Both the position numbers and the translations under genes were made by a program. The notes below the pieces were generated by a model. It was given only the letters and a program-made list of their open reading frames with translations, did no database searches and was not told the origin of the DNA. DNA of 64,000 bases, taken from a virus. Taxonomy: Duplodnaviria > Caudoviricetes. The stretch is from the IMG/VR virus record IMGVR_UViG_2806310948_000001, positions 8,187 through 72,186 of that record; one strand, written 5' to 3'. Positions 1 to 62,792 of the stretch are shown piece by piece. How positions within the stretch are numbered: the first letter of the stretch is position 1; every line of letters starts with the position of its first letter.

Positions 1-32
1 TATTAATTATATAATGTGGAGGAAAAAAATAA

Positions 33-512
33 ATGCCTAAGTTTGCTACAAAAGCGGCCGACAATATGTTTTGTCAGGCACGATACGAGGCGGCAAAGTT
101 CAACGAACGGTTAAGTAGCCGCGAAGGAGCTGCTGAGGAACTTGGTGTTGACCGGACAAGGCTTGCACGAATAGAACTTGGCAGTGTTACCCCTTATCCA
201 GAGGAAGTGCTTCTGATGGCGGATATCTATAGAGCCCCTGAATTGAAAGGTAATTATTGCCGGGAAATGTGCCCGCTGGGAAAAGGAATGCCAAAGATCG
301 AGAGTCATCAGGACATTGATAGGATTGCACTCAGGGCGCTGTGCTCATTCCGGAAGATTAACGAAGCCAAAGAACTCCTGTTAGATATTACAGCAGATGG
401 AGTTATTACAGAGGATGAAAAGTCAGATTTGGAGAAGATCATAAACACCTTGGATGAGGTTAATGAGGTAACTCAGAACCTGAAAAACTGGATTGAAAAA
501 ACATTGAAATGA
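33..512 (+). CDS. XRE-family HTH phage regulator (CII/YmfL-like C-terminus)
   Basis: HTH segment SREGAAEELGVDRTRLARIELG; C-terminal ITADGVITEDE motif; first gene of early operon. Confidence 0.7.
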   Translation: MPKFATKAADNMFCQARYEAAKFNERLSSREGAAEELGVDRTRLARIELGSVTPYPEEVLLMADIYRAPELKGNYCREMCPLGKGMPKIESHQDIDRIALRALCSFRKINEAKELLLDITADGVITEDEKSDLEKIINTLDEVNEVTQNLKNWIEKTLK

Positions 513-709
513 ATGGAGGTGCAGGCATGGGAATCGTCAAAGATTACAAAATTGGAAATACCAGCATAAAGATAGCTGATGATTATTGCTTATCAAAAAC
601 AGATGAAGAAGTAGAAGAGATCTTGCATCGTATCGCAGTATCTGCATATAGACATTTCAATGCCAAAGCCGAAAACTATGCAGATGAAACAATGATCAAC
701 GCAGGTTGA
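509..709 (+). CDS. Hypothetical phage protein
   Basis: ORF overlapping upstream stop; GGAGG before the internal ATG at about 527. Confidence 0.6.
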   Translation: MNGGAGMGIVKDYKIGNTSIKIADDYCLSKTDEEVEEILHRIAVSAYRHFNAKAENYADETMINAG

Positions 710-725
710 TAGAAAGAGGTGTACA

Positions 726-890
726 TTGCTTACAACGGAAGATGTGAAGAAATATCACGCAACAGTTGAACGGATTTTAAATGCGTTAGATAACAGCCCG
801 GTGCCAATCAGTTGGCGTAAAATGGACAGATGCGCATTACAGAGCGTTATCGCCAAAGAATTGATCTTAATTGATAAGGAGGCAAGATAA
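726..890 (+). CDS. Hypothetical 54-aa protein (not in ORF track)
   Basis: AGAGG RBS then TTG start, open to TAA at 888-890 which overlaps the next ATG. Confidence 0.5.
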   Translation: MLTTEDVKKYHATVERILNALDNSPVPISWRKMDRCALQSVIAKELILIDKEAR

Positions 891-1246
891 TGGATGTACG
901 CAAAGTACAAGATATGCGAAAGAATGTGGAACATCAGTACATTACAGAAGATTCCAAAACACGGATATATCTGTCCGTGGTGCGAGAATTTAATGAGAAG
1001 GAGTATGAAAAATATTCCCAAAAAAAGAAAAGAGCGAAAATGAAAAAGAGAATTCGCTTTTTGAAAAGGTTGATGGTTTACATCATTCCTACAGCAATCA
1101 GCCTTATCTTTTTCGGATATCTGAGTGATATGCTTTGCGCAATAAGGGGAAGCGCAGAGCTCGGATCTGAATGGATAGCAATCCCGATCATGTGGGTGTG
1201 GATACATGCGCTGGTCAGATTTGCTGTAGGAGATGATGCATATTAA
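890..1246 (+). CDS. Hypothetical membrane protein
   Basis: Basic N-terminus then two hydrophobic segments; GGAGG RBS. Confidence 0.65.
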   Translation: MDVRKVQDMRKNVEHQYITEDSKTRIYLSVVREFNEKEYEKYSQKKKRAKMKKRIRFLKRLMVYIIPTAISLIFFGYLSDMLCAIRGSAELGSEWIAIPIMWVWIHALVRFAVGDDAY

Positions 1247-1399
1247 AAGCCCCAGATGCTTAAAGGAGATATGAAGTGTAGACGGCACTCATAAGTCCGC
1301 ATCGGAGGCTTAGGTCAGAACTTTAAAACTTTGGTTTTGGAGCCCTTGTTTTTAAAGAACACCGTCATTTTATCACAAATTTAGGAGGTAATCAAGTAC

Positions 1400-2539
1400 A
1401 TGCAGGAAATTTCAGGAAGCTTATCAGAGGTTATAAGAGCATACAGTGATCATAATTTGCTTGTCCCTGCGGCAACAGATGTGCAACTGAATCCTTTCTA
1501 TAAATATCATGTAGAGGAAGTTGCAGTTGATCTGAGCGAAAATAGTGGCGACATTTTTAAAGTTGGTTCTGTTAAAACTGGAAAAACAGATAGCAAAGGA
1601 AATGATATCTGGCAGGATACATATTCATTATCCAAACCACTTCTTAACAAATTGGCTATGGCAGCTGGTATTCAGTTTAATCCACATCAGACATACGGTA
1701 GACGAATTGATAATATCACATATCGAGCTCAGGCACAGGGAGCAATGAGAAAAGCGGATGGGACTTACAGATCGGAAGTCGACCAGAAAGAAATCTGTCT
1801 TGAGGATGAAGAAGATAAGTATCGTACAGAATTTTCTGATAAGGCGGTTAAGGGGATTACAGACAAGAAAGCGGCAAATGCAGCGGCAGAAATATTTAAA
1901 GGAAGCTGGGTTGATACGAAAGATAAATGGGGAAAGAAAGTTAAAGCTTATGTTATCGACGAAGCAGATAGAGAACGATATGTTGAACGTTCGGTAAAAG
2001 TAAATATGGCTTTATTAAAGAAGACATGGGCCGAAAAAGCAATGACAGGAGCAAAACTCAGAGTCATCAGAGCATTGCTTGGGACAAAAGGCTCTTACAC
2101 AAAGGATGAATTAAAAAAGAATTTCGCGATTCCAACAGTAATATTCTCTCCGGATTATTCAGATCCACAGGTCCGGCAGGCAATGCTGATGCAGGGTATG
2201 AATTCTGTAAACAATATGTTCGGAATGCCTCAGATTGAGGTTAAGAATGTAGATTTTGCCACAGATAGCAATATTATCGATGAAGGTGACTTGGACAATC
2301 CGGCGTTTACTTCGGAACTTCCGGATGAAGATATGGGCGAAATTCAACAGGAAGCATTTGCCCAGCCCGAACAGGAAGAGCCGAATGAACCGGATCCGCA
2401 ACCAGAGGAAGACAGAACTGCAGATTTTCAGTGCTCCAGATGCGGTACGATCATAAATGAAAAGGTTTATGAGTATTCAATCAATAAATTTGGTGAACCA
2501 TTGTGTATCAAATGCCAGAGAGGAGGCGGACGCAGATGA
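1400..2539 (+). CDS. Hypothetical protein with acidic linker and C-terminal Zn ribbon; possible recombination (single-strand annealing) protein
   Basis: C-terminal CSRC...CIKC; E/P-rich linker; upstream of the SbcCD-like gene. Confidence 0.6.
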   Translation: MQEISGSLSEVIRAYSDHNLLVPAATDVQLNPFYKYHVEEVAVDLSENSGDIFKVGSVKTGKTDSKGNDIWQDTYSLSKPLLNKLAMAAGIQFNPHQTYGRRIDNITYRAQAQGAMRKADGTYRSEVDQKEICLEDEEDKYRTEFSDKAVKGITDKKAANAAAEIFKGSWVDTKDKWGKKVKAYVIDEADRERYVERSVKVNMALLKKTWAEKAMTGAKLRVIRALLGTKGSYTKDELKKNFAIPTVIFSPDYSDPQVRQAMLMQGMNSVNNMFGMPQIEVKNVDFATDSNIIDEGDLDNPAFTSELPDEDMGEIQQEAFAQPEQEEPNEPDPQPEEDRTADFQCSRCGTIINEKVYEYSINKFGEPLCIKCQRGGGRR

Positions 2540-2973
2540 AAATTATTAAAATTTCCACAGAACTTGAAATGACAATACACGATTTTCCGGAAGGAACCAT
2601 GAGAGAACAAAGCAAAGCTCTCTACGAACTGATTGGTAATGGATGCGATATTGTTGAACATGTAATGCCGAAGAGACTTTATACAATGTTAAAAATGTCG
2701 CCTACACCAACAAGGACGCCTGGTGAATGTGTATGCATGTTGATCGACGAAGAGGGAAGGCTGAAGCCGAATAGAGCAAACCTGATTGGAAGCTATCTTT
2801 ACGAATATGACAAGCATGGATGCCCTATTCTTGGAAACATCCTGTTTATCGGAGAAAAGATGGGGAATAGTGGCATTGATTTCTGTGGGATTAGTGAAGA
2901 GAACTTCGATTGTTTGAAAAAGGGGCTCGTAAATATGTTTCCTGTAATAAAAGTGACGGAGGTAAAAGAATGA
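2536..2973 (+). CDS. Hypothetical phage protein (DUF3846-like)
   Basis: GGAGG RBS and ATG at 2536; LIDEEGRLK..N..GSYLY..ILGN pattern. Confidence 0.55.
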   Translation: MKIIKISTELEMTIHDFPEGTMREQSKALYELIGNGCDIVEHVMPKRLYTMLKMSPTPTRTPGECVCMLIDEEGRLKPNRANLIGSYLYEYDKHGCPILGNILFIGEKMGNSGIDFCGISEENFDCLKKGLVNMFPVIKVTEVKE

Positions 2974-5900
2974 AGATTTTACATACAGCTGACTGGCATA
3001 TTGGCCAGTTTAAAGGTCCTGTAGTGGACGGGGTAAATCTCCGTTCACAGGATACAGTAAATTGTCTTAATTATATGATTAAGGTTGCAGAAGAAGAGAA
3101 ACCAGACATTGTTTGCGTTTCTGGTGATGTTTTCCATCAGGAGCAGATAGGTCCGGTAAGATATTCGGACGAAATGATTGTTGCAACAGACACGATCACA
3201 AAATTGGCAGGTGTTGCGAAAGCAGTAATCGTAATGAGAGGAACGCCGAATCATGATGGAGGTGGACAATTCAGAGTTTTGAGCAAGATGTTTGCAAATA
3301 CCGGAAATGTACATATAGTAACATCGCCAACTGTACTCCGTACGCCATATGCTGATATAGCCTGCATTCCGGGATTTGATAAGCAGGAGTTCAGATCAAG
3401 ATTCCCTGGTCTGTCTGCAGATGAAGAAAATGAAGCATGGACAAGCTATATATCCAGTATGGTAATGGGACTTCGAGCTGAATGCCATAATACACCTATA
3501 CTGATGGCGCATTATACCGTACCTGGTTGCAACATGGAATCCGGCCAGACTTCATTCTTTACAAATTTTGAACCGGTTATTCCGAGAGAAGCATTGGAAG
3601 CTGCTGGGTATGAAGCAGTGCTCCTGGGACACATTCACCGCCCGCAGATACTTAATGGTCTGCATAATGTATTTTACTCCGGGGCTATTAATGCTATGAA
3701 TTTCAATGATGAAGGACAGGAGAGAGGTTTCTGGATTCACGAGTTCAGTGATACAGGAAAGCTGACAAAAGGACATAATTGCATCACACCATACAGACGG
3801 TTCTATACGATCACATGGGATACAGAAGAAGTGGAAGCTTATATCCGAGAGGGAGTGATGTATCTTCATAGATTGGGATTTCCGGAAGATGTGACAGATA
3901 AGATTGTTCGAGTGCGGTATTCCTGTACATCCGAACAGAAGAAACAGTTAAATATTCCTGCACTGCAGAAAGACCTGTATGAACTGGGGGCCTTTTATGT
4001 GTCGGATATTGAGGCAGAAAATGCTATTGATGTTACGAACAGAGGATTACTCTCAGAGGAAAGCGACCCGACTTTAAATCTCAAGAAGTATCTGGAAGAA
4101 AAATGCTTCAAGAATCCAGATAAGATCGTAGAACTGGCAGAACCGATTATTGCGGAAGCGATGAAACAGAGTACAACTGCAGAGATACACGGAGTATTCC
4201 GACCGATTTCAATAGCTGTCCGCAATTACAGAAATTATAAAGAAGAAAGATTTGATTTTGCTGATATATCTTTCTGTACGATCAACGGTATAAATGGAGC
4301 AGGAAAGAGCAGCTTATTCATGGATGCGATTGTTGACTGCCTGTTTGAAGAAACTCGAGAGGGAGACAGCAAGGCGTGGATCCGCGGTACAGAAGATGCA
4401 AGAAGCGGTTCTATAGAATTTGTATTTGACATTGGAGATAAGAGATTCAGGGTCGTACGTACCAGAACTAAGTCAGGAAAACCGACGTTGAACCTATCTC
4501 AGTATGAAGAAAATGAATGGCGAAACATTTCAAAGGAGCGAATTGCTGATACTCAGGCAGAGATAGAGAAGCTTCTCGGTATGGACAGCATGACATTCCG
4601 AAGTTGCGCTTTAATCATGCAGGATCAGTACGGATTATTCTTGCAGGCTAAAAAGGACGAACGTATGACAATACTTGCGAAACTGCTTGGTCTTGGAATC
4701 TATGGAGTTATGGAACTGGATTCAAAAAAGAAACTCTCCGAACAGAGAAAAGAGCTGGCCTCGAAAAAAGAAGCTGTCCGAATCAAAACGGATTTTATCA
4801 AATCCAAAGGAGATCCGGAATCTGAATTGCAGAAAGCAGAGGAAGATATTCATCAGCTTAATAAAGAGATTGAGGATTTAAGCGATACTCAAGGACAGTT
4901 ACTGAATAAACATGCTCAGATTGCAAAAGCAGAGCAGGAGTGCCGCAAAGCTTCGGAAGAATTGGATGATTGTCATAAGAGACGCAGCTCCATTTCAGAT
5001 GAAATCTCAAGTAAGACGCAGATTTTAGAAAACTGTAATGTCGCATTGGAATCAGCGAATGAGGTCAGAAAAAAAGCCGCCGAATATAAACAGTTGTCCG
5101 AACAGATTATAGAGCTGGAGAAAGACGTTCTTAATCATGACAACGCAAAAAGAAATCTTGCCGGGTATAATGCTGACATCCAGAATTGCCAGAATATCAT
5201 AAACGATGCAAAGCGTCGAAATAACGACATTGCGAATCTTATTGAACAGCTTAAAGCAGAACTTCCGGATAATTTGGAAGAAAAACTGACGGAGTTGGCT
5301 CAGGTGAGGACACAATGCGAGGAATTACAGGAAAAAAGATATCTGGCTTCTATTGCGGAGCAGGAACTGCAACAGATAAGAGCAACGTATTCTCAGCGTA
5401 TATCAGAAGCAGAGAACAGGCGGAAATATCGTTTGGACAGAATTTCCGAGATAAGACAGCAGGAGGAATTTATGAAGAATTCCGGTTGCCCTGATATAGA
5501 TGGAGCAAGCTGCAGGTTTCTTGCAAAAGCAATCGATGATGTAAAAAGTTTACCAGAAGAAGCAGACCATCTGGAAAAATGTGAGGAAGAAATAGCAGCA
5601 TTGAGGATCAAACGGGACGAAGAAATATCCAAAAAACAGGATGAAATTTGTGTTATCGGATATGATGCTGAAAGATTAGATCTTTTGACAACAAAAGCAA
5701 GTGCGCTTGTGAAATATGAAAACTTGAAAAAGGATGCCGAGAAAAAGAAACTTGAAATCGCCCGTTTAGAGACAGAAAAGAACACCAACAGTAAAACGAT
5801 AGGGCAGTATGAAGAAATCCTCTTAGAGCTCAATATAAAGGCCCAGAAAGCAACTGATATTGTTGATATGTTATCTGATTCCGTTATTAAGTACGATAAT

Positions 5901-6797
5901 GCTGTATGTAAAAGAAATTCGGTGGCACATTTTGCAGACCAGGAAAAGGAACTTCCGGTGTATGAAGAGAGAAAGCAGCATATTGATAAGAGACTTACTG
6001 AATTATATCAGGAGCGGAGCAAGGAAGATGCCAACGAACTTGTTTTATACAACAATCTTCGTGAAGCGGAAATAAAACTGGAAGAATTAAGAAAAGATAT
6101 TGAAGGCAGTGAAGCTCTTGAAGAAGTTGAGAGAAGATTAAAATTTGCAAAAGAAACTCTGGAAAAAGCGCAGATTCAAAAAGGCGTACTGACACAGAGA
6201 GTTGAAGATGTTGAGGCGATGCGTTCTGAAATAGCTCTTTTGAATAAAGGTATTGCTGTTGCAGCTGAGAAAGCTGATTGCTACGAGGCTTTGAAACAGG
6301 CATTTTCACAGGATGGCGTTCCGCATCAGATCATCCGAAATATTATTCCTCACATTACTGATACTGCAAACAATATCCTTGGATCTATGACAGGCGGAAC
6401 TATGGGAGTGGAATTTGTGATGGAACGTACCGTCAAAGGTAAAGACGGTGACAGAGCTACACTGGACGTACTGATCAATGAGTACGGAAAGACAACTCTC
6501 CCATATGCTTCGAAATCCGGAGGGGAAAAGGTAAAGGCTTCACTTGCTATTATCCTTGCATTGTCTGAGATTAAAGCAACGTCCGCAGGTATTCAGCTCG
6601 GAATGCTGTTTATAGACGAACCTCCATTTCTCGACGATGATGGAACTCAGGCCTATGTAGATGCTCTGGAAACAATCAGACAGAGGTATCCAGATGTGAA
6701 AATTATGGCAATAACCCATGATGATGCTATGAAAGCTCGATTCAATCAGTCTGTAACCGTAATTAAAACAGAAGACGGCTCTAAGGTCATTTACTAA
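2970..6797 (+). CDS. Fused SbcD (Mre11-type metallophosphoesterase) and SbcC (Rad50-type SMC ATPase)
   Basis: ADWHIG, GDVFH, GTPNHD, GHIH nuclease motifs; Walker A GINGAGKS, coiled coils, signature SGGE, Walker B LFIDE and H-loop ITHD in one ORF. Confidence 0.9.
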   Translation: MKILHTADWHIGQFKGPVVDGVNLRSQDTVNCLNYMIKVAEEEKPDIVCVSGDVFHQEQIGPVRYSDEMIVATDTITKLAGVAKAVIVMRGTPNHDGGGQFRVLSKMFANTGNVHIVTSPTVLRTPYADIACIPGFDKQEFRSRFPGLSADEENEAWTSYISSMVMGLRAECHNTPILMAHYTVPGCNMESGQTSFFTNFEPVIPREALEAAGYEAVLLGHIHRPQILNGLHNVFYSGAINAMNFNDEGQERGFWIHEFSDTGKLTKGHNCITPYRRFYTITWDTEEVEAYIREGVMYLHRLGFPEDVTDKIVRVRYSCTSEQKKQLNIPALQKDLYELGAFYVSDIEAENAIDVTNRGLLSEESDPTLNLKKYLEEKCFKNPDKIVELAEPIIAEAMKQSTTAEIHGVFRPISIAVRNYRNYKEERFDFADISFCTINGINGAGKSSLFMDAIVDCLFEETREGDSKAWIRGTEDARSGSIEFVFDIGDKRFRVVRTRTKSGKPTLNLSQYEENEWRNISKERIADTQAEIEKLLGMDSMTFRSCALIMQDQYGLFLQAKKDERMTILAKLLGLGIYGVMELDSKKKLSEQRKELASKKEAVRIKTDFIKSKGDPESELQKAEEDIHQLNKEIEDLSDTQGQLLNKHAQIAKAEQECRKASEELDDCHKRRSSISDEISSKTQILENCNVALESANEVRKKAAEYKQLSEQIIELEKDVLNHDNAKRNLAGYNADIQNCQNIINDAKRRNNDIANLIEQLKAELPDNLEEKLTELAQVRTQCEELQEKRYLASIAEQELQQIRATYSQRISEAENRRKYRLDRISEIRQQEEFMKNSGCPDIDGASCRFLAKAIDDVKSLPEEADHLEKCEEEIAALRIKRDEEISKKQDEICVIGYDAERLDLLTTKASALVKYENLKKDAEKKKLEIARLETEKNTNSKTIGQYEEILLELNIKAQKATDIVDMLSDSVIKYDNAVCKRNSVAHFADQEKELPVYEERKQHIDKRLTELYQERSKEDANELVLYNNLREAEIKLEELRKDIEGSEALEEVERRLKFAKETLEKAQIQKGVLTQRVEDVEAMRSEIALLNKGIAVAAEKADCYEALKQAFSQDGVPHQIIRNIIPHITDTANNILGSMTGGTMGVEFVMERTVKGKDGDRATLDVLINEYGKTTLPYASKSGGEKVKASLAIILALSEIKATSAGIQLGMLFIDEPPFLDDDGTQAYVDALETIRQRYPDVKIMAITHDDAMKARFNQSVTVIKTEDGSKVIY

Positions 6798-6807
6798 GGA
6801 GGCGTCT

Positions 6808-7734
6808 ATGGGAAAAAGATACTATTGGCTTAAGCTGCCGGATGATTTCTTCCGGCAGAAGCCGATCAAAAAACTCCGCAGAATTGCCGGAGGCGATACA
6901 TACACAATTATCTATCTCAAGATGTTGCTGGTATCTCTGAAAAATGAGGGAAAACTCTTCTTTGATGGAGTAGAAGAGAATTTTACAGAAGAGATTGCAC
7001 TTGAACTTGACGAAGAAGAGGAAAACGTAAAAGTCACAGTCCAGTTTCTTATGGCTCAGGGACTCCTGCAACTGATAGACGAAAGCGAATATGAGCTTAC
7101 AGAGTGTTCCAGAATGGTGGGATCTGAAAGCGCAAGTGCTGAAAGAATGAGACGTCTTAGAGATAAAAAAACGTCACAATGTGACATTGGTGTGACGCAA
7201 CAGTTACACCTCAGTGACGTAGAGAAAGAGATAGAGATAGAGAAAGATAAAGAGATAGAGAATAAATACATTTGCCCGGAGGTGAACTCCGGACAGCCGC
7301 AACCGAAGGTGGAGATAGAGCCAGTTACGGAGAGCAGGACGAAGGTGGAGATAGAGCCATCCTGTTCAAAGGCTGAGTTGAAGGTAGAGACAGAGCCGGC
7401 TCAGGCGGATGTATTTATTAAATTGCCGTTGATCAATGGGGATGATTACCTGGTGACAAAAGAATATGTCAAAGAGCTTAAAGAATTATATCCGGCAGTT
7501 GATGTTGAACAGGCATTGCGTAATATGCGTGGATGGCTTGATTCTAACCCCAGAAACAAAAAGACTCCGAGGGGAATCAAACGATTTATTACAGGTTGGA
7601 TATCCAGAGAGCAGGACAAAGCACCTCGCGTGCCGGATAAGCCAAAGCCTGTTTCTCAAAACCGCTTTAATAATTTTCACCAGAGAGATTATGACTTTGC
7701 AGAGTATGAAAGGCAGTTGTTGAAACGTGAATGA
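6808..7734 (+). CDS. Phage replisome organizer / replication initiator
   Basis: N-terminal YYWLKLPDDFF...YLKMLL pattern; C-terminal NRFNNFHQRDYDF-type helicase-loader-interacting tail. Confidence 0.85.
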   Translation: MGKRYYWLKLPDDFFRQKPIKKLRRIAGGDTYTIIYLKMLLVSLKNEGKLFFDGVEENFTEEIALELDEEEENVKVTVQFLMAQGLLQLIDESEYELTECSRMVGSESASAERMRRLRDKKTSQCDIGVTQQLHLSDVEKEIEIEKDKEIENKYICPEVNSGQPQPKVEIEPVTESRTKVEIEPSCSKAELKVETEPAQADVFIKLPLINGDDYLVTKEYVKELKELYPAVDVEQALRNMRGWLDSNPRNKKTPRGIKRFITGWISREQDKAPRVPDKPKPVSQNRFNNFHQRDYDFAEYERQLLKRE

Positions 7735-8557
7735 AGAAAAGATTACAGGGACCGAAAAAGAGTTTTTGGATGTGTTCAGGCAGCTCTGCATCAGCAGGAG
7801 TTCGTGGCAGGTGTGGGCGGATCTTATGGCGGCAATGGCATGTACACTTGCAAATGCAGTAGATAAGTCATTGCCGAGACATACGGCAAGGGAAAAAGAG
7901 TATGCAGAGTGCATCAAACGCCTTGGAGGAGTGGAGAAGCCAGCCAAGTGCTTTGCGATTGTAGTTGAAGCACTGGAACGCAATCCAGATCAGGACTTTC
8001 TTGGAAAGCTGTACATGAGCCTTGAGTTAGGAAATCACTGGAAAGGGCAGTTTTTTACACCATACAATGTCTGCGAATGTATGGCTGGCATAACAATCAA
8101 TGACAATATACAGACATTGGAAAAACAGGAATGGATATCTGTCAATGATCCGGCATGTGGAGCAGGAGCGACTCTTGTAGCAACGGCAAACATATTCCGC
8201 AGAAAAAAGATAAATTACCAGACACGGGTTTTGTTCACCGCCAATGACATAGACAGAGTAGTTGCTCAGATGTGTTACATACAGCTTTCACTTCTTGGGT
8301 GTGCAGGCTGGGTGGCTGTTGCAAATACGATATCCAATCCGGTATGCGGAGATCCGCTGATGCCTGACGAAAAACCTGGACAGGAATTTTGGTACACACC
8401 GTTTTACTTTCGGGAAGAATGGTGTAGGAGACGACAGCTCAAGATATTTAGAGAACAGTTTGGCGCATTGGTCGTGCCATTGAGAAAAATAGAAGCTGAA
8501 AGGACAACATTTTATTTTGATTTCGAGAAAGGAGAATACAAATGTCAGAACAGTTAA
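7727..8557 (+). CDS. N-6 DNA methylase-like SAM-binding protein
   Basis: GQFFTP, DPACGAG (SAM-binding motif I) and DID motifs. Confidence 0.75.
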   Translation: MNEEKITGTEKEFLDVFRQLCISRSSWQVWADLMAAMACTLANAVDKSLPRHTAREKEYAECIKRLGGVEKPAKCFAIVVEALERNPDQDFLGKLYMSLELGNHWKGQFFTPYNVCECMAGITINDNIQTLEKQEWISVNDPACGAGATLVATANIFRRKKINYQTRVLFTANDIDRVVAQMCYIQLSLLGCAGWVAVANTISNPVCGDPLMPDEKPGQEFWYTPFYFREEWCRRRQLKIFREQFGALVVPLRKIEAERTTFYFDFEKGEYKCQNS

Positions 8558-57169: not shown

Positions 57170-57210
57170 TTAGGAGCCTGTTTTAAGGCTCCTTTTTGCG
57201 AGGTGGACTT

Positions 57211-58581
57211 ATGGATAAGCAAAATATAACTGTATTGAGAAAAATACTGTACGCAGTGGAATCTGGGAATCAGATTTACGGAGAACAGGATTACGCAGCC
57301 TTTGCCGAAGTTGGAGCAAATTGTAGTAATGAGAAAGCAATCACCATTGGGGCCGGGCAGTGGTACGCAGACGAAGCGAAAGAATTGTTGTACAGAATCC
57401 AGAGAGGCAATCCGAAGTTGTTCAAGGACATGGACACAGAGAATCTTGAAGCTGATCTTCTCAAAAAGAGCTGGGCTACATATGCGGTAAGTAAGGATTC
57501 TGCAAAAGGCAGATTGATTATCAGCATCATTAGTATGGAACTTGGCAAGAAATGCCAGGATCAGTATATGGAAGACCAGATTGCGGCATACGCAAAAAGT
57601 ATCGAAAAAACATACGGATCCATGCCGGATACCGCAATGATGGAATGTATCAATATCCTACATCAGGGTGGCTTTGATGCATTGAAAAGAATCTTGTCTA
57701 AAACTCCGGAACCATATACTGCAGACAAGATTTATGCAACACTGTGTCGGGATCCGGCAGACCCGACGCCGAATCAGGTAGGGGATTACACAGACAGGCA
57801 GAAAACTGTCATAAACATGATTCATACATATGCTGATAACACAGAGAAAGAAGGTATTGCAATGACTAAGACAGAAAAAGCAATAAGACAGATGGAGACA
57901 TGGGCGAAAGATGATTCTCATGGCTACGATCAGGACTACCGCTGGGGAGAAAAGGGAGATTACGACTGTTCCTCGGCTGTGATCCAGGCATGGCAGAACG
58001 CCGGAGTTCCGGTTAAGTCTGGTGGCGCTACATACACAGGAGATATGAAGAACGTATTCTTGAAAAATGGATTTGTAGATGTAACGAGCAAAGTTAACGT
58101 AGCAACCGGATCTGGTTTGCTCAGAGGAGATGTGCTGCTGAATGAAGCACATCATGTAGCCATGTATTGTGGAAATGGCAAAGAGGTAGAAGCCTCAATT
58201 AACGAGAAAGGTACCGCTCATGGAGGTAAACCGGGAGATCAGACTGGCAAGGAGTTTTTGATCCGGAGCTATCGGAATTATCCTTGGAATTGTGTGCTCA
58301 GGTATAGAGGGAATATTTTCTCTGCTTCTGACACAGAGAAGAAACAGAACACAGTGGCCTATGTAGCCAGATTCACAAAGGATTGCAAGTGCTATAGTGC
58401 AGCTGGCAAAACTCAAGCTAAAATGTTCCCAGTGATTAAAAAGAATGCGGTTGTAGATGTGATGAAATACACCGAAACCGTAAAGGGAAAAAGATGGTAC
58501 TTCATCCGGATTCCGTATCCAAATGACGAAGGATTCGTAAGGGAGTTCGTCCCAGCTGGATACTTCAAGAAGTTGATTTAA
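57211..58581 (+). CDS. Endolysin: N-terminal putative glycosidase-like domain, NlpC/P60-type amidohydrolase, SH3-like C-terminus
   Basis: HGYDQ...DYDCSSAV (catalytic Cys), HHVAMY; C-terminal RWYFIRI. Confidence 0.85.
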   Translation: MDKQNITVLRKILYAVESGNQIYGEQDYAAFAEVGANCSNEKAITIGAGQWYADEAKELLYRIQRGNPKLFKDMDTENLEADLLKKSWATYAVSKDSAKGRLIISIISMELGKKCQDQYMEDQIAAYAKSIEKTYGSMPDTAMMECINILHQGGFDALKRILSKTPEPYTADKIYATLCRDPADPTPNQVGDYTDRQKTVINMIHTYADNTEKEGIAMTKTEKAIRQMETWAKDDSHGYDQDYRWGEKGDYDCSSAVIQAWQNAGVPVKSGGATYTGDMKNVFLKNGFVDVTSKVNVATGSGLLRGDVLLNEAHHVAMYCGNGKEVEASINEKGTAHGGKPGDQTGKEFLIRSYRNYPWNCVLRYRGNIFSASDTEKKQNTVAYVARFTKDCKCYSAAGKTQAKMFPVIKKNAVVDVMKYTETVKGKRWYFIRIPYPNDEGFVREFVPAGYFKKLI

Positions 58582-58622
58582 CAGACGGTGCCTTCTAAAA
58601 TCACATTAAAATATATCACATC

Positions 58623-58654
58623 AAAAGGAACTCTATAAAGACGGAGTTCCTTTT
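58623..58654. terminator. Bidirectional terminator between endolysin and convergent moron operon
   Basis: AAAAGGAACTC-N10-GAGTTCCTTTT. Confidence 0.8.
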
Positions 58655-58683
58655 GAATAAACCGCTAATTATATTTTATAATA

Positions 58684-59124
58684 TTATTCCTCCCCTATCT
58701 TTTCTTCGTATTTTTTTATGAGCCATTCCGGGACCGGTTCGTCTCCGTCGTCACCCCTGTATTTGATCGGGTCAATATTGTTTGTGAAACACCACTCCCA
58801 GCTGTTATAATCGTCGCCGTCTTTTGATACGATGTAGAATATATCATATTCGCCATCCACAAATGCTATCGTATCTGTTGCATTCATTGTGTACAGCATG
58901 ATATACATGTTTCTCCTGTATGCGTACGCCATTTCTAGCGGCGAATCTTCACCGCCCAGAAATTCCATGAACATTTCAACGTCGGAAGATTCTTTCGACA
59001 ATTTGTTATAATAATCGTAGACTTTTTCATCCCATCCGTCCGGGAAAAGTTTACGTTCTTTTATTTTCTCGTTATCTTCTTTAGCCATTTTGTAAATGGT
59101 TTCAAGTTTTACTCTCTTAATCAT
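58684..59124 (-). CDS. Acidic hypothetical protein (anti-defence candidate)
   Basis: 146 aa, D/E-rich; AGGAGG RBS; last gene of HTH-containing operon. Confidence 0.65.
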   Translation of the reverse strand: MIKRVKLETIYKMAKEDNEKIKERKLFPDGWDEKVYDYYNKLSKESSDVEMFMEFLGGEDSPLEMAYAYRRNMYIMLYTMNATDTIAFVDGEYDIFYIVSKDGDDYNSWEWCFTNNIDPIKYRGDDGDEPVPEWLIKKYEEKIGEE

Positions 59125-59136
59125 TTTACACGCCTC

Positions 59137-59310
59137 CTATTTCACTTCGCAATCTTCCAAGACAGCTCGCTCTAACAGCTGTCTCACATAATCCGGGCAT
59201 TTACTTTTCCCGGATTCCCAGTTTTCGAGCGTTCTAATCGGTATGTTGTACCTCCTTGAGAATTCTGCTCGGGATACTTTTAGTCGTTCACGCATTTCTG
59301 ATATAGTCAT
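59137..59310 (-). CDS. 57-aa XRE HTH protein (Aca-like); not in ORF track
   Basis: MTISEMRERLKVSRAEFSRRYNIPIRTLENWESGKSKCPDYVRQLLERAVLEDCEVK; AGGAG RBS. Confidence 0.85.
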   Translation of the reverse strand: MTISEMRERLKVSRAEFSRRYNIPIRTLENWESGKSKCPDYVRQLLERAVLEDCEVK

Positions 59311-59318
59311 AAATTCTC

Positions 59319-59585
59319 CTAATATTCGAAATATTCGCCGCTGAATTTATCACGACGATATCTTCGTGCCATAGATTTTACACTGTAATTATAATCCATT
59401 AATTCACCATGTTTATCATAAACTGGTTCTTTGTTGACGGTTTCTCCGTAAAATTCAATGTATTCTCCATCTCCAGAGATAGAGATGTTATCATAAATTC
59501 CGAAATTTCTTTCTGGAGTAAATGTATATTTGGCAAGCATCTCTAAAATTTCTTTTGTTATAGGCTCTAAATGCATATTTTCCAT
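59319..59585 (-). CDS. 88-aa hypothetical protein (anti-defence candidate)
   Basis: AGGAG RBS, ATG at 59585. Confidence 0.65.
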   Translation of the reverse strand: MENMHLEPITKEILEMLAKYTFTPERNFGIYDNISISGDGEYIEFYGETVNKEPVYDKHGELMDYNYSVKSMARRYRRDKFSGEYFEY

Positions 59586-59595
59586 AATCAATCTC

Positions 59596-60018
59596 CTATC
59601 TGTTCTGAAATTTTTCAATGACATCTGTTACTTTTTTGTATCGGTCTGTAATAACATATACGCCATTAATGTTGTCATAGTAGCCAAGAGCATGCTCAGC
59701 TCTCAGTTTAGAATTCCTATATTCTCTCAAAGAGATATAAGTTCTATCCTTACCGCCTTTTACCCAGTCATTACAGTTCCATTTCTGATACCATCCGTTA
59801 CCCTGATCGCCATCGGGGTAAACTGTATCAAGCATTTTCTCGAGCTCTTTCCAAGGGATTTTGTACCCTTTCTGATTATCAAAAACTTCTAATGCATAAT
59901 TCACCATTGTTTTTGCTTCCTCCCATGCTTTCTTAAGACCGGAGGAAATTGTCATTGCAGATTTCTTAACCAGTTCCCATGCCCTTTTCATGATTTTTGA
60001 TAAGTTGTATTTCTTCAT
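59596..60018 (-). CDS. 140-aa hypothetical protein (anti-defence candidate)
   Basis: MKKYNLSKIMKRAWELVK...GLKKAWEEAK; GGAGG RBS; first gene after operator-bearing promoter. Confidence 0.7.
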   Translation of the reverse strand: MKKYNLSKIMKRAWELVKKSAMTISSGLKKAWEEAKTMVNYALEVFDNQKGYKIPWKELEKMLDTVYPDGDQGNGWYQKWNCNDWVKGGKDRTYISLREYRNSKLRAEHALGYYDNINGVYVITDRYKKVTDVIEKFQNR

Positions 60019-60048
60019 TTCTGTTTCCTCCGTTCCTTTGATGATTAT

Positions 60049-60077
60049 ATAATACCACCAATTTGGTGGTATGTCAA
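60049..60077 (-). promoter_or_regulatory. Promoter TTGACA-N17-TATTAT with palindromic operator ATACCACCAA-T-TTGGTGGTAT (60052-60072)
   Basis: Perfect 10-bp inverted repeat across the spacer; TG extended -10. Confidence 0.85.
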
Positions 60078-60162
60078 GAAGAAACGCAATTAAATTAATA
60101 CTAGTGCACGAGTGCTCGACTTTAAATTACTCTTATCTGGGATATAGCCAGTACCGCTTCCT

Positions 60163-60576
60163 CTACTCATTCGCCGCTCCTTTTCCCAATGTTGCCATTA
60201 AGAGATTTGTAGCAAAGCCTTCTATTGCATCGATGTAATCTATATCTTCGTCTTCCCATTCACAATTAGGATACCTTTCTCGGAATCTATCAACTATGTT
60301 TAGTACAGTTTTATACGCTGCTTGATCGGATCCATATTGATCGTCATCTTTGGACCATGGATGGATCTTACCTTCTTGCAGAAGCGTGTCATACATGAAT
60401 GTTACTTCTACAATGTCTGTTCTTCTAACAGATTCTTCCAATAATTGCAGAACATATTCCGGTGGAGTTCGAACTTCGGATTCCCACGATTCAAGCGTTC
60501 TAATCGGTATGTTGTACCTCCTTGAGAACTCCGCTCTGGAGACTCCTATGTAATTTCTCATTTCTGTAATGTTCAT
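60163..60576 (-). CDS. 137-aa protein: N-terminal Aca-like HTH fused to an acidic domain
   Basis: MNITEMRNYIGVSRAEFSRRYNIPIRTLESWES; GGAGG RBS. Confidence 0.8.
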   Translation of the reverse strand: MNITEMRNYIGVSRAEFSRRYNIPIRTLESWESEVRTPPEYVLQLLEESVRRTDIVEVTFMYDTLLQEGKIHPWSKDDDQYGSDQAAYKTVLNIVDRFRERYPNCEWEDEDIDYIDAIEGFATNLLMATLGKGAANE

Positions 60577-60600
60577 AATTGTTACCTCCTTCATAATGAA

Positions 60601-60630
60601 ATAATACCACACAATGCGTGGTATAGTCAA
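60601..60630 (-). promoter_or_regulatory. Promoter TTGACT-N18-TATTAT with operator ATACCAC-N7-GTGGTAT (60604-60624)
   Basis: Same operator half-sites and spacing as at 60052-60072. Confidence 0.8.
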
Positions 60631-60810
60631 TGATAATTCCTTCCATATATTACCGCTATTTTTTCTACATCTGGTGTGATAGGATAAACGAGCTTCACAC
60701 AGTTAAATTTCTGGCGTAAATTCGATAGGATATAGCAGAAAACGATATAATCTAACAAATTCCGTCATGTATTACCATAAAGTGGTAATTTATAACGGAG
60801 GAGCAATGGC

Positions 60811-61071
60811 ATGATTAAAATTTTACTGTCGAAAAAGCTGGGAGAGTTAAGACTTACTCAAGCAGATCTGGCGAGGGCAACTGGAATCAGACCCAATACC
60901 ATCAATGAGTTGTACCACGAGCTCACAGAAAGGGTCAGCCTTGAACACCTTGATTTAATTTGTGAAGCATTAAATTGTGAGCTGGACGAATTGATTATAA
61001 GGGTACCAAACAAGGAAACATCTATAACCCATACACGCCAGGGAACCCAGAAATCTAGCGACACAAAGTAG
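60811..61071 (+). CDS. Cro/C1-type HTH regulator
   Basis: LTQADLARATGIRPNTINELY...LDLICEALNC. Confidence 0.85.
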   Translation: MIKILLSKKLGELRLTQADLARATGIRPNTINELYHELTERVSLEHLDLICEALNCELDELIIRVPNKETSITHTRQGTQKSSDTK

Positions 61072-61132: not shown

Positions 61133-62059
61133 TTAAGCTGCATGGGAAGCTTCTGCATTTTTTCTGAGCTGTTTCATCATGTGTAACCTGCAGGTCTTGA
61201 ATTCATCTCCGTAAAGACCAAGGCGATTTGTTAAAATATTATACATCAGTGTGACTTTTTTCTCTGCAGTGTATCCATTCATTGATCGGAATACTATTTT
61301 GTCTGAGGATTCGATAGACCATGCTGAAAGAGCAAGGACAAACTGGATGTATGCTTTAATTTTTCCAGCATGAAGAGTGCTGTTAAAAAGTCTGAATTCG
61401 ACTGTGCCTTTCTGGAAGAAGCTGTGAAGATTCAGGGCGTGGTATCTTGTTGAATTATAATGACTATGATCAATACCACCATGATACTGATCGTTCGCAC
61501 TGCTGTACCAGATTTCTTCAACTTTTCTTGTATCAAGATCCTTTTCTTTTTTCATTGTATCCAGTAAATCCTTACATACCGGCCTGCACCATCTGTCTTT
61601 TCTGTTTCCCACTGCAAGAGCATCATAGATAATTTCTTGTCTGCTGAAAAAGAAATTTACCAATCTTCTGAGAGAAGTGGCTGTATGGTTTGCACCATCA
61701 ACATGAATATGTATTCCGCAACTGCTATGAGGAACCCCGCCGAGTTCTTTAAATTTACGGATTATTGTCTGAAGTGTTTCAATATCTTCATAATTAAGAG
61801 GTGGTGTTACAAATTCAACTCTATATTCATCCATCAATTCACGTCCCGCTTTTCTAACTGGACAAATACTTGAATCTCTCATTACTTTCCAAATTCTTCT
61901 TTTGCTATCTCGAATCGTATAAGTACGATAGCAAGTGCGATCAGGTCCGGCAGCATGACTTCCGAGGATTTCTGCAACAGCCTCAGCGGCCATGGTTCTT
62001 GTTATTCCTGTAAATTCTACCTCAACTCCAAATTTTTGCTTTTTCAAAAGTTCTGACAT
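61133..62059 (-). CDS. Putative amidoligase (Amidoligase_2 / COOH-NH2 ligase)
   Basis: FGVEVE, WKVMRDSSI, EFVTPPL, SCGIHIHV, RYHALN, GTVEFRLFNSTL. Confidence 0.88.
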   Translation of the reverse strand: MSELLKKQKFGVEVEFTGITRTMAAEAVAEILGSHAAGPDRTCYRTYTIRDSKRRIWKVMRDSSICPVRKAGRELMDEYRVEFVTPPLNYEDIETLQTIIRKFKELGGVPHSSCGIHIHVDGANHTATSLRRLVNFFFSRQEIIYDALAVGNRKDRWCRPVCKDLLDTMKKEKDLDTRKVEEIWYSSANDQYHGGIDHSHYNSTRYHALNLHSFFQKGTVEFRLFNSTLHAGKIKAYIQFVLALSAWSIESSDKIVFRSMNGYTAEKKVTLMYNILTNRLGLYGDEFKTCRLHMMKQLRKNAEASHAA

Positions 62060-62221
62060 AAATTTTTCCTCCTTTTAAGAACTAAACTTCGCACCGTCTA
62101 TACGAAAATTTGTTCTGCTTTCTATGGTTGTATATTACCATATGTACAGTACATGTCAATAGTTTATTGGAGAAAATTTCTAAAATTATAGAGAAAAAAT
62201 TCAATATAATGAAACAAAAGC

Positions 62222-62250
62222 TTGACATACATTAAACAAGACTATATAAT
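62222..62250 (+). promoter_or_regulatory. Perfect consensus promoter TTGACA-N17-TATAAT
   Basis: TTGACA 62222-62227; TATAAT 62245-62250. Confidence 0.85.
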
Positions 62251-62291
62251 AAAGACAGATAAAAAACAGACAAATCAGAGGAGGAAACACT

Positions 62292-62588
62292 ATGAATAAA
62301 ACAGAATCTGTAGCTGGTAAAGCTACAAGAAGAATGCAACTTAAAAACATGCCTTTCGATCGCTTCGAGGACGGAGTTGGATTCATCCATGCAACCGGAT
62401 GCGATTGTTTCGTGGATGGCGAGTGGGTAACTGAATATGAAGACGGAATCTATGAGGATGCCCCAGGTTGCATCTATGAGGACGAGGAAGATGATGAGCC
62501 TGAGTGGACGGAAGAAGACGAAACTCAGTACGCAGAGACGTTCGAACCGTATCCGGGCTTTGAAAATTTTAAACTGGGAGGAAAATAG
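62292..62588 (+). CDS. Very acidic 98-aa hypothetical protein
   Basis: GAGGAGG RBS; YEDEEDDEPEWTEEDE tract. Confidence 0.7.
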   Translation: MNKTESVAGKATRRMQLKNMPFDRFEDGVGFIHATGCDCFVDGEWVTEYEDGIYEDAPGCIYEDEEDDEPEWTEEDETQYAETFEPYPGFENFKLGGK

Positions 62589-62792
62589 ATGATTTCATAT
62601 ACTCCCCTCTGGCATACCCTTATCAATAAGGGCATGAATAAGGGGGATTTAAAAAATATGACTGGTTTAAGCTTCGGAACCATTGCCAGTATGGGGAAAA
62701 ACGAGCCAGTCAACTTAAAACAGATCGACAGGATCTGCAAAGCTCTTCATTGCAAGATAGAGGATGTTATAGAATATAAAGATGAGAATTAA
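62589..62792 (+). CDS. Small Cro/C1-type HTH protein
   Basis: MISYTPLWHTL...ICKALHCKIEDVIEY. Confidence 0.85.
   Translation: MISYTPLWHTLINKGMNKGDLKNMTGLSFGTIASMGKNEPVNLKQIDRICKALHCKIEDVIEYKDEN

What the first reader, a model, noticed from the sequence alone, without database searches (positions are those of the whole stretch)
58684..60630. Candidate anti-CRISPR / anti-defence locus with Aca-like HTH genes and a shared operator
Seen: downstream of the endolysin, on the opposite strand, a strong promoter drives 140-aa, 88-aa, 57-aa HTH and acidic 146-aa genes. A second promoter drives a 137-aa HTH fusion. Both promoters carry ATACCAC-N7-GTGGTAT between -35 and -10 (60052-60072, 60604-60624). 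The 57-aa HTH is missing from the ORF track. Known: acr operons typically consist of small, often acidic, orphan genes with a strong promoter autorepressed by an HTH Aca protein binding an inverted repeat in the promoter. Inference: the three non-HTH proteins are candidate new inhibitors of CRISPR-Cas or other defences.
Basis: partly seen in the sequence, partly recalled or inferred. Interest (0 to 1): 0.75.

Follow-up and report, generated by a model that had tools for sequence, protein, structure and literature searches.

The report
Autoregulated candidate anti-CRISPR cassette, Blautia prophage
At the end of a Blautia (human gut) prophage lies a small mobile gene cassette whose strong promoters carry the binding site of a repressor encoded in the cassette, and sister phages use the same promoter and repressor to drive a stray copy of a CRISPR gene (cas5), so it is a good but untested candidate for new phage inhibitors of bacterial immunity.

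Summary
Five minus-strand genes have good ribosome-binding sites: 140, 88, 57 (HTH) and 146 aa, plus a separate 137-aa HTH fusion. Two near-consensus promoters each carry ATACCAC-N7-GTGGTAT in the spacer. These are the only two copies in the 72-kb provirus.

About 290 related IMG/VR loci show a mobile, mosaic cassette of Blautia/Lachnospiraceae phages. The promoter/operator, a 37-aa N-terminal leader, the HTH and the 146-aa gene are conserved. The cargo between them is swapped.

The cargo proteins are ORFans with no significant hit in Pfam, PHROGs, NCBIfam, PADLOC or PDB. The 146-aa protein has no relative outside its own cluster among 1.84 billion representatives.

The HTH is an XRE-type domain of the MqsA/HigA2 kind and belongs to no Aca family I could test.

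New evidence: in 8 sister loci the same promoter, leader and HTH drive an operon ending in a solo viral Cas5b homologue. In 14 loci the 146-aa gene sits directly upstream of that gene. A viral Cas5 homologue (AcrIB3) is a proven type I-B inhibitor in Listeria.

Verdict: a probable acr-aca-type anti-defence locus (about 0.55). Its regulation is well supported by sequence and its function is untested. The scan noted a sister cassette before on other DNA (e1-3661247).

The parts
60049..60077 (-). Promoter P1 (TTGACA, 17 nt, TG-n-TATTAT) of the four-gene operon
   Evidence: 11/12 match, extended -10. It is 94.6% identical over 166 nt to the promoter plus leader of L312, which drives a vCas5 operon.
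60052..60072 (.). Operator O1, ATACCACCAATTTGGTGGTAT (10-1-10 palindrome) filling the P1 spacer
   Evidence: It is found with a downstream C57-type HTH in related loci.
59596..60018 (-). A140: a 37-aa basic helical leader (59908-60018) plus a 100-aa alpha/beta C-domain of unknown fold
   Evidence: pLDDT above 90 for the C-domain. No fold match. Leader pN/pS is 0.13 and the leader is fused to at least 5 C-domain types. At least 522 leader-bearing protein clusters exist.
59319..59585 (-). B88: acidic 88-aa ORFan cargo gene
   Evidence: no family or PDB match. It occurs in 16 IMG/VR loci, next to an A140-type gene and a C57-type HTH in every locus I mapped.
59137..59310 (-). C57: 57-aa XRE-type HTH, the presumed autorepressor (Aca-like)
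   Evidence: Pfam HTH_19/HTH_3 and phrog_25567 at 9.6e-11. TIGR03830 MqsA at 1.7e-5. PDB 2PPX at 9e-7 and HigA2 at 4e-4. Operator covariation.
58684..59124 (-). D146: acidic 146-aa ORFan, the conserved last gene of the arrays
   Evidence: At least 101 IMG/VR loci at 90% identity or more. Only its own cluster among 1.84e9 representatives. It sits directly upstream of c50-vCas5 in 14 loci. The AF2 model is of low confidence.
58621..58656 (.). Bidirectional terminator hairpin between the endolysin and D146
   Evidence: 13-bp perfect stem with a 10-nt loop.
60601..60630 (-). Promoter P2 (TTGACT, 18 nt, TG-n-TATTAT) of the 137-aa gene
60604..60624 (.). Operator O2, ATACCACACAATGCGTGGTAT, in the P2 spacer
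   Evidence: The core TACCAC-N7-GTGGTA is also upstream of E137 homologues in other B. wexlerae prophages.
60163..60576 (-). E137: N-terminal HTH (68% identical to C57) fused to an acidic 79-aa C-domain of unknown function
   Evidence: The unit is absent from L006 through recombination between P2 and P1. In L035 it is the last gene of an upstream leader array. In other prophages it heads an operon with a 241-aa gene.

Best explanation
This is a mobile, self-repressed accessory cassette of Blautia phages and most likely an anti-defence (acr-aca-type) locus.

Proposed mechanism:
1. When the phage genome enters a cell without repressor, the two near-consensus promoters fire. They make A140, B88, C57 and D146, and separately E137.
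2. Dimers of the C57 and E137 HTH domains, which share a recognition helix, then bind the palindrome ATACCAC-N7-GTGGTAT. It occupies the -35/-10 spacer of both promoters, so bound repressor blocks RNA polymerase and throttles both units. In the lysogen only low expression remains.
3. The cargo proteins act on host immunity. These are the A140 C-domain behind a conserved 37-aa leader, acidic B88, acidic D146 and perhaps the acidic C-domain of E137. The most likely target is a type I CRISPR-Cas system of Blautia.

Shown by sequence: the genes, promoters, operators, cassette boundaries, cargo swapping, and linkage to a viral Cas5b homologue in sister arrays.

Inferred: HTH-operator binding, repression, and any inhibitory activity.
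For: Anatomy and non-random operators.

Operator-HTH pairing:
- 129 promoters with TACCAC..GTGGTA precede FSRRYNIP[IVL]RTLE-type HTHs.
- 14 promoters with TATCAC..GTG[GA]TA precede FS[DE]KYKIPKRTIE-type HTHs.
- The core operator also precedes E137 homologues in unrelated B. wexlerae prophages.

Mobile, mosaic cassette:
- Against a phage with the same backbone, only window 59299-59903 is replaced, from the end of the leader to the start of the HTH.
- Against another backbone, homology is confined to P1 plus leader and to HTH plus D146.
- One relative lacks the E137 unit through recombination between the two promoters.
- D146 arrays use three regulator types (this HTH, an RHH, an HTH_26), each with its own repeated operator in a strong promoter.

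Link to CRISPR:
- A solo 229-aa viral protein matches Cas5b (TIGR01895, E 6.4e-19).
- It is 33% identical over 208 aa (E 2e-29) to a Cas5 inside a genuine Blautia Cas7-Cas5-Cas3 operon.
- It occurs once per viral genome, with no cas3.
- In 8 of 64 loci it ends an operon that starts with the window's own promoter/operator, leader and HTH. In 14 of 64 loci D146 lies directly upstream.
- A viral Cas5 homologue, AcrIB3, inhibits type I-B CRISPR in Listeria, and Listeria acr operons lie downstream of phage lysin genes, as here (preprint 10.1101/2023.06.24.545427).

Precedent and setting:
- Aca proteins that repress several neighbouring anti-defence operons, an RHH Aca, and a Cas5f homologue in an acr operon are described in PMC13551039.
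- Blautia genomes carry CRISPR-Cas: Cas5d in 28, Cas9 in 6 and Cas5b in 2-3 of 101 species genomes searched.
- A Blautia CRISPR array carries a 33/33 spacer against a sister cassette's promoter.
- B. producta has 162 self-targeting spacers and no known Acr (PMC7708048).
Against: - No cargo protein has significant similarity to any known Acr or anti-defence protein. The only such hit is 16.7 bits to the N-terminus of the AcrIIA3 model, whose cut-off is 70.
- The A140 C-domain has no fold match above chance (best Z 5.1). D146 could not be modelled (pLDDT 57.8).
- The HTH's nearest named relatives are antitoxins (MqsA, HigA2), not Acas.
- The window's own prophage has no viral Cas5, so the CRISPR link is by association only.
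- The viral Cas5 was not compared with AcrIB3 itself and is probably an independent capture.
- Many related loci are near-identical, so the counts overstate the number of independent events. The operator covariation rests on two lineages.
- Self-repressed small-gene arrays at prophage ends can have other roles.
Confidence: 0.55

Rival explanations
1. A generic autoregulated prophage moron cassette. The regulation is as described, but the cargo serves the lysogen or the phage in some other way, such as superinfection exclusion, host takeover or lysogenic conversion, rather than inhibiting host defences.
For: - It lies at the prophage end, antisense to the late genes, beside other accessory genes: an amidoligase and two further HTH units.
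- All cargo proteins are ORFans with no functional signal.
- Mosaic swapping is typical of any accessory hotspot.
Against: - The same promoter/leader/HTH drives a solo Cas5b homologue in sister phages, and D146 is its operon neighbour in others. That points to counter-defence rather than exclusion.
- Tight autorepression of a near-consensus promoter fits a burst-then-shut-off early function.
Confidence: 0.27
2. A secondary immunity or antirepressor module, like immI of phage P22 (arc, mnt, ant). In this reading small repressors hold back a strong promoter whose products interfere with prophage repressors or the lysis-lysogeny decision.
For: - Small HTH or RHH repressors sit on strong promoters with repeated operators, placed near late or lysis genes.
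- The comparison with P22 immI is from my own knowledge.
Against: - No Ant, KilAC or Bro domain was found in any cargo.
- The cargo is highly variable, whereas the phage repressors of one backbone are not.
- The arrays are associated with a Cas5b homologue.
Confidence: 0.08
3. A type II toxin-antitoxin or abortive-infection module. The MqsA/HigA2-like HTH would be the antitoxin and autorepressor, and a neighbouring gene (B88 upstream or D146 downstream) the toxin.
For: - The HTH's best named matches are antitoxins: TIGR03830 at E 1.7e-5 and HigA2 (5JAA) at E 4e-4.
- Autoregulation through a promoter palindrome is typical of TA operons.
- HTH-D146 adjacency is conserved.
Against: - C57 is a bare 57-aa HTH with no neutralising extension.
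- B88 and D146 are acidic (pI 4.85 and 4.46) and match no toxin family.
- D146 also occurs behind its own promoter next to an RHH, and in arrays with no adjacent HTH.
- E137 stands alone behind the same operator.
Confidence: 0.07

Closest known systems
acr-aca operons with HTH Aca autorepressors (Aca1, Aca2 paradigm; PMC6765145, PMC9410906)
   Same: - Small ORFan genes sit behind a strong promoter.
- A small HTH is encoded in the operon.
- An inverted repeat lies inside the promoter.
- The locus is on a phage.
   Different: - The HTH is not a detectable member of a known Aca family; only non-significant similarity to Aca2 was found.
- The HTH is the third of four genes rather than the last.
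- No known acr gene is in the operon.
- Nothing has been tested at the bench.
Aca proteins that control several operons, and the RHH protein Aca14 (PMC13551039)
   Same: - One operator type sits on two adjacent promoters.
- In sister arrays the HTH is replaced by an RHH with its own repeated operator.
- A solo Cas5 homologue is present in such operons.
   Different: - The hosts differ (Pasteurella and Pseudomonadota there, Blautia here).
- The proteins are unrelated.
- The Cas5 homologue is of type I-B here, not I-F.
Bifunctional HTH-Acr fusions: AcrIIA1 and AcrIIA13-15 (bioRxiv 10.1101/787200; PMC7104187; PMC10901769)
   Same: - E137 has an N-terminal HTH that should bind the promoter palindrome, plus an extra acidic C-domain.
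- The locus lies downstream of the phage lysin, as in Listeria.
   Different: - No sequence similarity to AcrIIA1 turned up in the PDB search, even at E up to 10.
- The function of the C-domain is unknown.
AcrIB3, a viral Cas5 homologue that inhibits type I-B CRISPR (bioRxiv 10.1101/2023.06.24.545427)
   Same: - The sister arrays carry a full-length solo Cas5b homologue.
- It is 33% identical to a host Cas5; AcrIB3 is 38% identical to its host Cas5.
   Different: - It is not present in this window.
- It was not compared with the AcrIB3 sequence.
- Its inhibition of CRISPR is inferred by analogy.
MqsA and HigA2 antitoxin HTH domains (TIGR03830; PDB 5JAA)
   Same: - The HTH is of the same XRE subtype, with the W-E-x-G...P motif.
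- Autoregulation goes through a palindrome.
   Different: - Scores are below the family cut-off (24.6 against 61.8 bits).
- There is no zinc ribbon or neutralising extension.
- No toxin partner is recognisable.

Membership tests
acr-aca operon (kind of system) | A small DNA-binding regulator (HTH or RHH) is encoded within the operon | tested here: met
   C57 and the N-domain of E137 match HTH_3/HTH_19 and phrog_25567.
acr-aca operon (kind of system) | An inverted repeat overlaps the operon's own strong promoter | tested here: met
   The palindrome fills the -35/-10 spacer of both promoters and occurs only twice in 72 kb.
acr-aca operon (kind of system) | The regulator binds the repeat and represses the promoter | not testable with these tools
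   Only indirect support exists: co-occurrence in about 140 loci, and one co-varying operator base.
acr-aca operon (kind of system) | At least one gene of the operon inhibits CRISPR-Cas | not testable with these tools
   Association only. Sister operons with the same promoter/leader/HTH end in a solo Cas5b homologue.
acr-aca operon (kind of system) | A cargo protein is homologous to a known Acr | tested here: not met
   The only hit across NCBIfam, PADLOC, Pfam and PDB is AcrIIA3_fam at 16.7 bits, against a cut-off of 70.
Aca2 (assigned to Pfam DUF1870/PF08965 from my own knowledge) | Sequence match to the family or to solved Aca2 structures | tested here: not met
   No PF08965 hit at E up to 0.1. 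Aca2 chains score E 0.19-0.4 over 26-41 residues.
Other Aca families (Aca1, Aca3-Aca13) | Sequence match to family profiles | not testable with these tools
   No Aca profile library was on hand. The PDB search at E up to 10 listed only Aca2 among Aca entries.
Type II toxin-antitoxin (MqsRA or HigBA2 type) | The antitoxin reaches the family threshold and has a toxin-neutralising part | tested here: not met
   TIGR03830 scores 24.6 bits against a cut-off of 61.8, and only the HTH part matches. C57 is 57 aa.
Type II toxin-antitoxin (MqsRA or HigBA2 type) | The adjacent gene belongs to a toxin family | tested here: not met
   B88 and D146 hit no toxin family in Pfam, NCBIfam or PADLOC, and both are acidic.
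AcrIIA1-type bifunctional Acr/autorepressor | N-terminal HTH plus a C-terminal effector domain, encoded behind a promoter palindrome | tested here: met
   E137 has an HTH at residues 1-50, an acidic C-domain of 79 aa, and operator O2 in its promoter.
AcrIIA1-type bifunctional Acr/autorepressor | Sequence homology to AcrIIA1 | tested here: not met
   No AcrIIA1 chain appears among the PDB matches at E up to 10.
Viral Cas5 inhibitor (AcrIB3-like); this applies to the sister loci only | Full-length Cas5b homologue encoded outside a cas operon on a phage | tested here: met
   TIGR01895 at E 6.4e-19. 33% identity to a genuine Blautia Cas5b. One copy per viral genome and no cas3.
Viral Cas5 inhibitor (AcrIB3-like); this applies to the sister loci only | Inhibits type I-B interference | not testable with these tools
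   By analogy with AcrIB3 only.

The most novel reading that the evidence does not exclude
The conserved 37-aa leader (MKKYNLSKIMKRAWELVKKSA.TISSGLKKAWEEAK) may be a functional delivery or docking module. It is under purifying selection and is fused to many unrelated C-terminal domains across Lachnospiraceae phages. It might target variable inhibitor domains to a common place, such as the virion for co-injection with the DNA, as the capsid-targeting sequence of T4 internal proteins does (from my own knowledge), or a shared host complex. On that reading the cassette is a plug-and-play anti-defence platform: one promoter, one repressor and one leader, with exchangeable warheads that include new type I CRISPR inhibitors.
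Probability: 0.15. Interest if true: 0.85.

Novelty: new member of a known kind. Interest (0 to 1): 0.6.

Why it matters
- Blautia is among the most abundant genera of the human gut. Its phages and their counter-defences are almost unstudied, and no inhibitor of its common type I-C system is known from this group.
- This cassette gives a defined, widely distributed set of candidates to test: the A140 C-domain, B88, D146 and the E137 C-domain, plus c56, c50 and the viral Cas5 in sister arrays.
- It offers a candidate new Aca-like regulator with a clear operator, which could serve as a search handle for further anti-defence loci in Lachnospiraceae phages.
- The leader-plus-variable-domain family (at least 522 protein clusters) is an uncharacterised protein architecture that would deserve study whatever its role.

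Tried and rejected
Family and sequence searches
- All five proteins and ten sister-array proteins were scanned against Pfam, PHROGs, NCBIfam and PADLOC. Only the HTH gave hits. The exceptions were the weak AcrIIA3 N-terminal hit and the Cas5b hit for the sister-array protein.
- PDB sequence searches found nothing for A140, B88, D146 or the E137 C-domain.
- An exhaustive HMMER search with D146 found its own cluster and fragments only.
- Two ESM Atlas look-ups gave nothing usable.
- The GenBank phage collection held only a few unannotated human faecal contigs.

Structure
- The D146 model was too poor to use (pLDDT 57.8). Its fold search gave no Z of 5 or more.
- The A140 model was good, but Foldseek against PDB and BFVD found nothing at E up to 0.001. 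The top rows were weak RAD52/ERF matches with TM about 0.2. VIA-align gave a best Z of 5.1, to a domain of RnlA, which is below the chance level.

Host genome and self-targeting spacers
- The 'genome' held for this window is only the 72-kb provirus.
- A D146 scan of species genomes found nothing.
- The B. wexlerae assemblies that carry E137 homologues are not held as genomes. The self-targeting spacer test could therefore not be run.

Operator scan of Blautia genomes
- One pattern scan was wasted on a mistyped spacing.
- The corrected scan showed no host regulon: 6 single sites in 136 genomes. Two were related to the cassette; one I inspected lies in the infC promoter region and I take it as chance; three were not looked at further.

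Other points
- The Listeria 'phage' hits to the viral Cas5 turned out to be a genuine type I-B cas operon on an unverified contig, not AcrIB3.
- The terminator-like call on operator O2 was rejected, because the site lies between the -35 and -10 of a promoter and is matched by O1.
- Complex prediction was not used, because the report claims no specific protein-protein contact.
Full report
**What is there**

The window is the right part of a 72,186-bp IMG/VR provirus. The flanking truncated nfo gene is 94% identical to that of Blautia difficilis. Homologues of the 137-aa protein are named only from Blautia wexlerae. The element is therefore a Blautia prophage from the human gut.

Downstream of the endolysin (57196-58581, plus strand) and a bidirectional terminator (58621-58656) lies a tight minus-strand operon:
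- A140, 59596-60018
- B88, 59319-59585
- C57, 59137-59310
- D146, 58684-59124

The gaps between these genes are 10, 8 and 12 nt, and each has a GGAGG-type ribosome-binding site. Upstream is a separate gene, E137 (60163-60576).

Promoter P1 (60077..60049) is TTGACA, 17 nt, TG-n-TATTAT. Promoter P2 (60630..60601) is TTGACT, 18 nt, TG-n-TATTAT. Each spacer is filled by ATACCAC-N7-GTGGTAT. With up to two mismatches allowed these are the only two matches in the window, against 0.08 expected. They are also the only two in the whole provirus.

**The proteins**

C57 and the first 50 residues of E137 are 68% identical, with the same recognition helix. They are XRE-type HTH domains:
- phrog_25567, E 9.6e-11
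- TIGR03830 MqsA, E 1.7e-5 (24.6 bits, cut-off 61.8)
- PDB 2PPX, E 9e-7
- HigA2, E 4e-4
- Aca2, only E 0.19-0.4

A140 is basic. B88, D146 and the C-domain of E137 are acidic, with pI 4.85, 4.46 and 4.24. None matches any family in Pfam, PHROGs, NCBIfam, PADLOC or the PDB. The one exception is a 16.7-bit hit of the A140 N-terminus to the AcrIIA3 model, whose cut-off is 70.

D146 has no relative outside its own cluster of about 89% identity among 1.84 billion representative proteins, and it could not be modelled. The A140 C-domain models well, with pLDDT above 90, as an alpha/beta domain. It has no fold match above chance.

**Comparative anatomy**

D146 occurs in at least 101 IMG/VR loci and the A140 N-terminus in at least 219. 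Mapping these loci gave the following picture:
- There is one recurrent array: promoter/operator, then a protein starting with a 37-aa leader, then variable small genes, then the HTH, then D146.
- The HTH is free-standing, or forms the C-terminus of a 232-aa protein, or takes the E137 form.
- The array sits in several different phage backbones.

Alignments define the module sharply:
- Against a phage of the same backbone (L004), only window 59299-59903 is replaced, from the last leader codon to the fourth HTH codon.
- Against another backbone (L020), homology is confined to P1 plus leader (59904-60077) and to HTH plus D146 (58684-59298).
- L006 lacks the E137 unit through recombination between the two homologous promoters.

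The leader is under purifying selection (pN/pS 0.13) and precedes at least five unrelated C-domains in these loci. At least 522 protein clusters of 77-245 aa in Lachnospiraceae carry it, all unnamed.

**Regulation**

Across the loci, 129 promoters with TACCAC..GTGGTA precede HTHs of the FSRRYNIP[IVL]RTLE type. Another 14 promoters with TATCAC..GTG[GA]TA precede the FS[DE]KYKIPKRTIE type. The core operator also lies upstream of E137 homologues in otherwise different B. wexlerae prophages, where E137 heads an operon with a 241-aa gene, again beside the endolysin.

Where D146 arrays lack this HTH they carry an RHH or an HTH_26 protein. Their strong promoters then carry a different repeated motif, for example ATAACGCACATAGAT on two promoters of L028.

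This is the layout of Aca-controlled operons. It includes control of a neighbouring operon by the same operator and replacement of the HTH by an RHH, both described recently (PMC13551039). Binding and repression themselves are inferred.

**The link to CRISPR**

In some D146 arrays the next genes are a 64-aa acidic ORF and, overlapping it by ATGA, a 229-aa protein. That protein:
- matches type I-B Cas5 (TIGR01895, E 6.4e-19);
- is 33% identical over 208 residues (E 2e-29) to the Cas5 of a genuine Blautia Cas7-Cas5-Cas3 operon;
- occurs once per viral genome, with no cas3.

Of 64 viral loci that hold it, 14 have D146 directly upstream. Eight begin with the window's own promoter/operator, leader and a C57-type HTH. 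In L312 the promoter and leader are 94.6% identical to window 59912-60077. The other small genes of these arrays (c38, c42, c56, c68, c84) are the same families that shuffle through the window-type arrays.

A viral Cas5 homologue, AcrIB3, has been shown to inhibit type I-B CRISPR in Listeria. That paper also notes that Listeria acr operons lie downstream of phage lysin genes (bioRxiv 10.1101/2023.06.24.545427).

The window's cassette is therefore an allele of an array family that elsewhere carries a very probable anti-CRISPR gene. The window itself has no viral Cas5, so this remains guilt by association.

**Host setting**

Among 101 Blautia species genomes searched:
- Cas5d (type I-C) was found in 28;
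- Cas9 in 6;
- Cas5b in 2-3.

A Blautia CRISPR array carries a 33/33 spacer match to the promoter/operator of a sister cassette in another Blautia genome. The array has 22 copies of a 33-nt repeat. B. producta is reported to have a type I-C system, 162 self-targeting spacers and no known Acr (PMC7708048). Selection for CRISPR inhibitors in these phages is thus plausible. The operator has no wider host regulon.

**Rivals**

- A toxin-antitoxin reading is suggested by the HTH's relatives. It fits poorly because C57 is a bare HTH, the neighbouring genes are acidic with no toxin signature, D146 also occurs behind its own promoter or without an adjacent HTH, and E137 stands alone.
- An immI-like antirepressor module has no domain support.
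- A generic moron cassette of some other function cannot be excluded and takes most of the remaining probability.

**Verdict**

It is best filed as a new, untested member of the acr-aca kind, with a new candidate Aca-type HTH. Its unusual modular leader is the most novel aspect.

A first-stage note on another genome (e1-3661247) describes a sister cassette of 134, 96, 57, 147 and 91 aa. That gene order matches the arrays seen here in L031 and L066.

Noticed in passing
window 62222-62792: A second acr-like unit. A perfect 12/12 promoter (TTGACA, 17 nt, TATAAT at 62222-62250) drives a very acidic 98-aa ORFan (62292-62588, pI 4.05), followed directly by a 67-aa HTH_26 protein (62589-62792). HTH_26 regulators also head the viral-Cas5 arrays of sister phages (cluster c148).
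   Followed up: partly
window 61133-62159: An Amidoligase_2 gene (308 aa, minus strand, Pfam E 8e-60). Its promoter (62159..62132) carries the palindrome ATGTACAGTACAT in the spacer. Its regulator is unknown.
   Followed up: no
window 60761-61071: An 86-aa HTH_26 gene on the plus strand (60811-61071). It is preceded by a 17-nt inverted repeat (60761-60777 and 60783-60799) with the core ATTACCA/TGGTAAT, which resembles the cassette half-site.
   Followed up: no
L261:895-960 and L262:1489-1530 (Blautia species genomes): A Blautia CRISPR array with 22 copies of the repeat GTCACGTCCCGCAAGGGGCGTGTGAGTAGAAAT. One of its spacers matches, 33 of 33, the promoter/operator of a sister cassette in another Blautia genome.
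   Followed up: partly
L265-L328 (IMG/VR), e.g. L312:3501-4190: A family of solo viral Cas5b homologues (229 aa) in 64 phage contigs of about 45 and 75 kb. The gene is almost always preceded by a 64-aa acidic ORF that overlaps its start. It is a candidate type I-B inhibitor by analogy with AcrIB3.
   Followed up: partly
L329 (OR846720.1 35555-43100): A GenBank record labelled 'UNVERIFIED_ORG: Listeria phage LM 4-11-1'. By ORF order and sizes (273, 562, 289, 260 and 727 aa) it appears to hold a complete type I-B cas operon. I did not scan these ORFs against any family library; the cas5 position is supported by the tblastn match with the viral Cas5. The stretch is probably host DNA.
   Followed up: partly
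L332:5574-7132 and similar (B. wexlerae prophages): E137 homologues (91% identical) head an operon with an overlapping 241-aa ORFan. They are preceded by an 85-aa coiled-coil-like ORF, again between host DNA and the endolysin of a different prophage.
   Followed up: no
provirus record 1-8186, left of the window: The left end holds a 418-aa ORF that, from its N-terminal sequence alone, looks like a group II intron reverse transcriptase. It also holds a 529-aa ORF that looks like a large serine recombinase, and two CI-like HTH genes. None of these was run against a family library. The prophage would then run from the recombinase to the split nfo gene.
   Followed up: no
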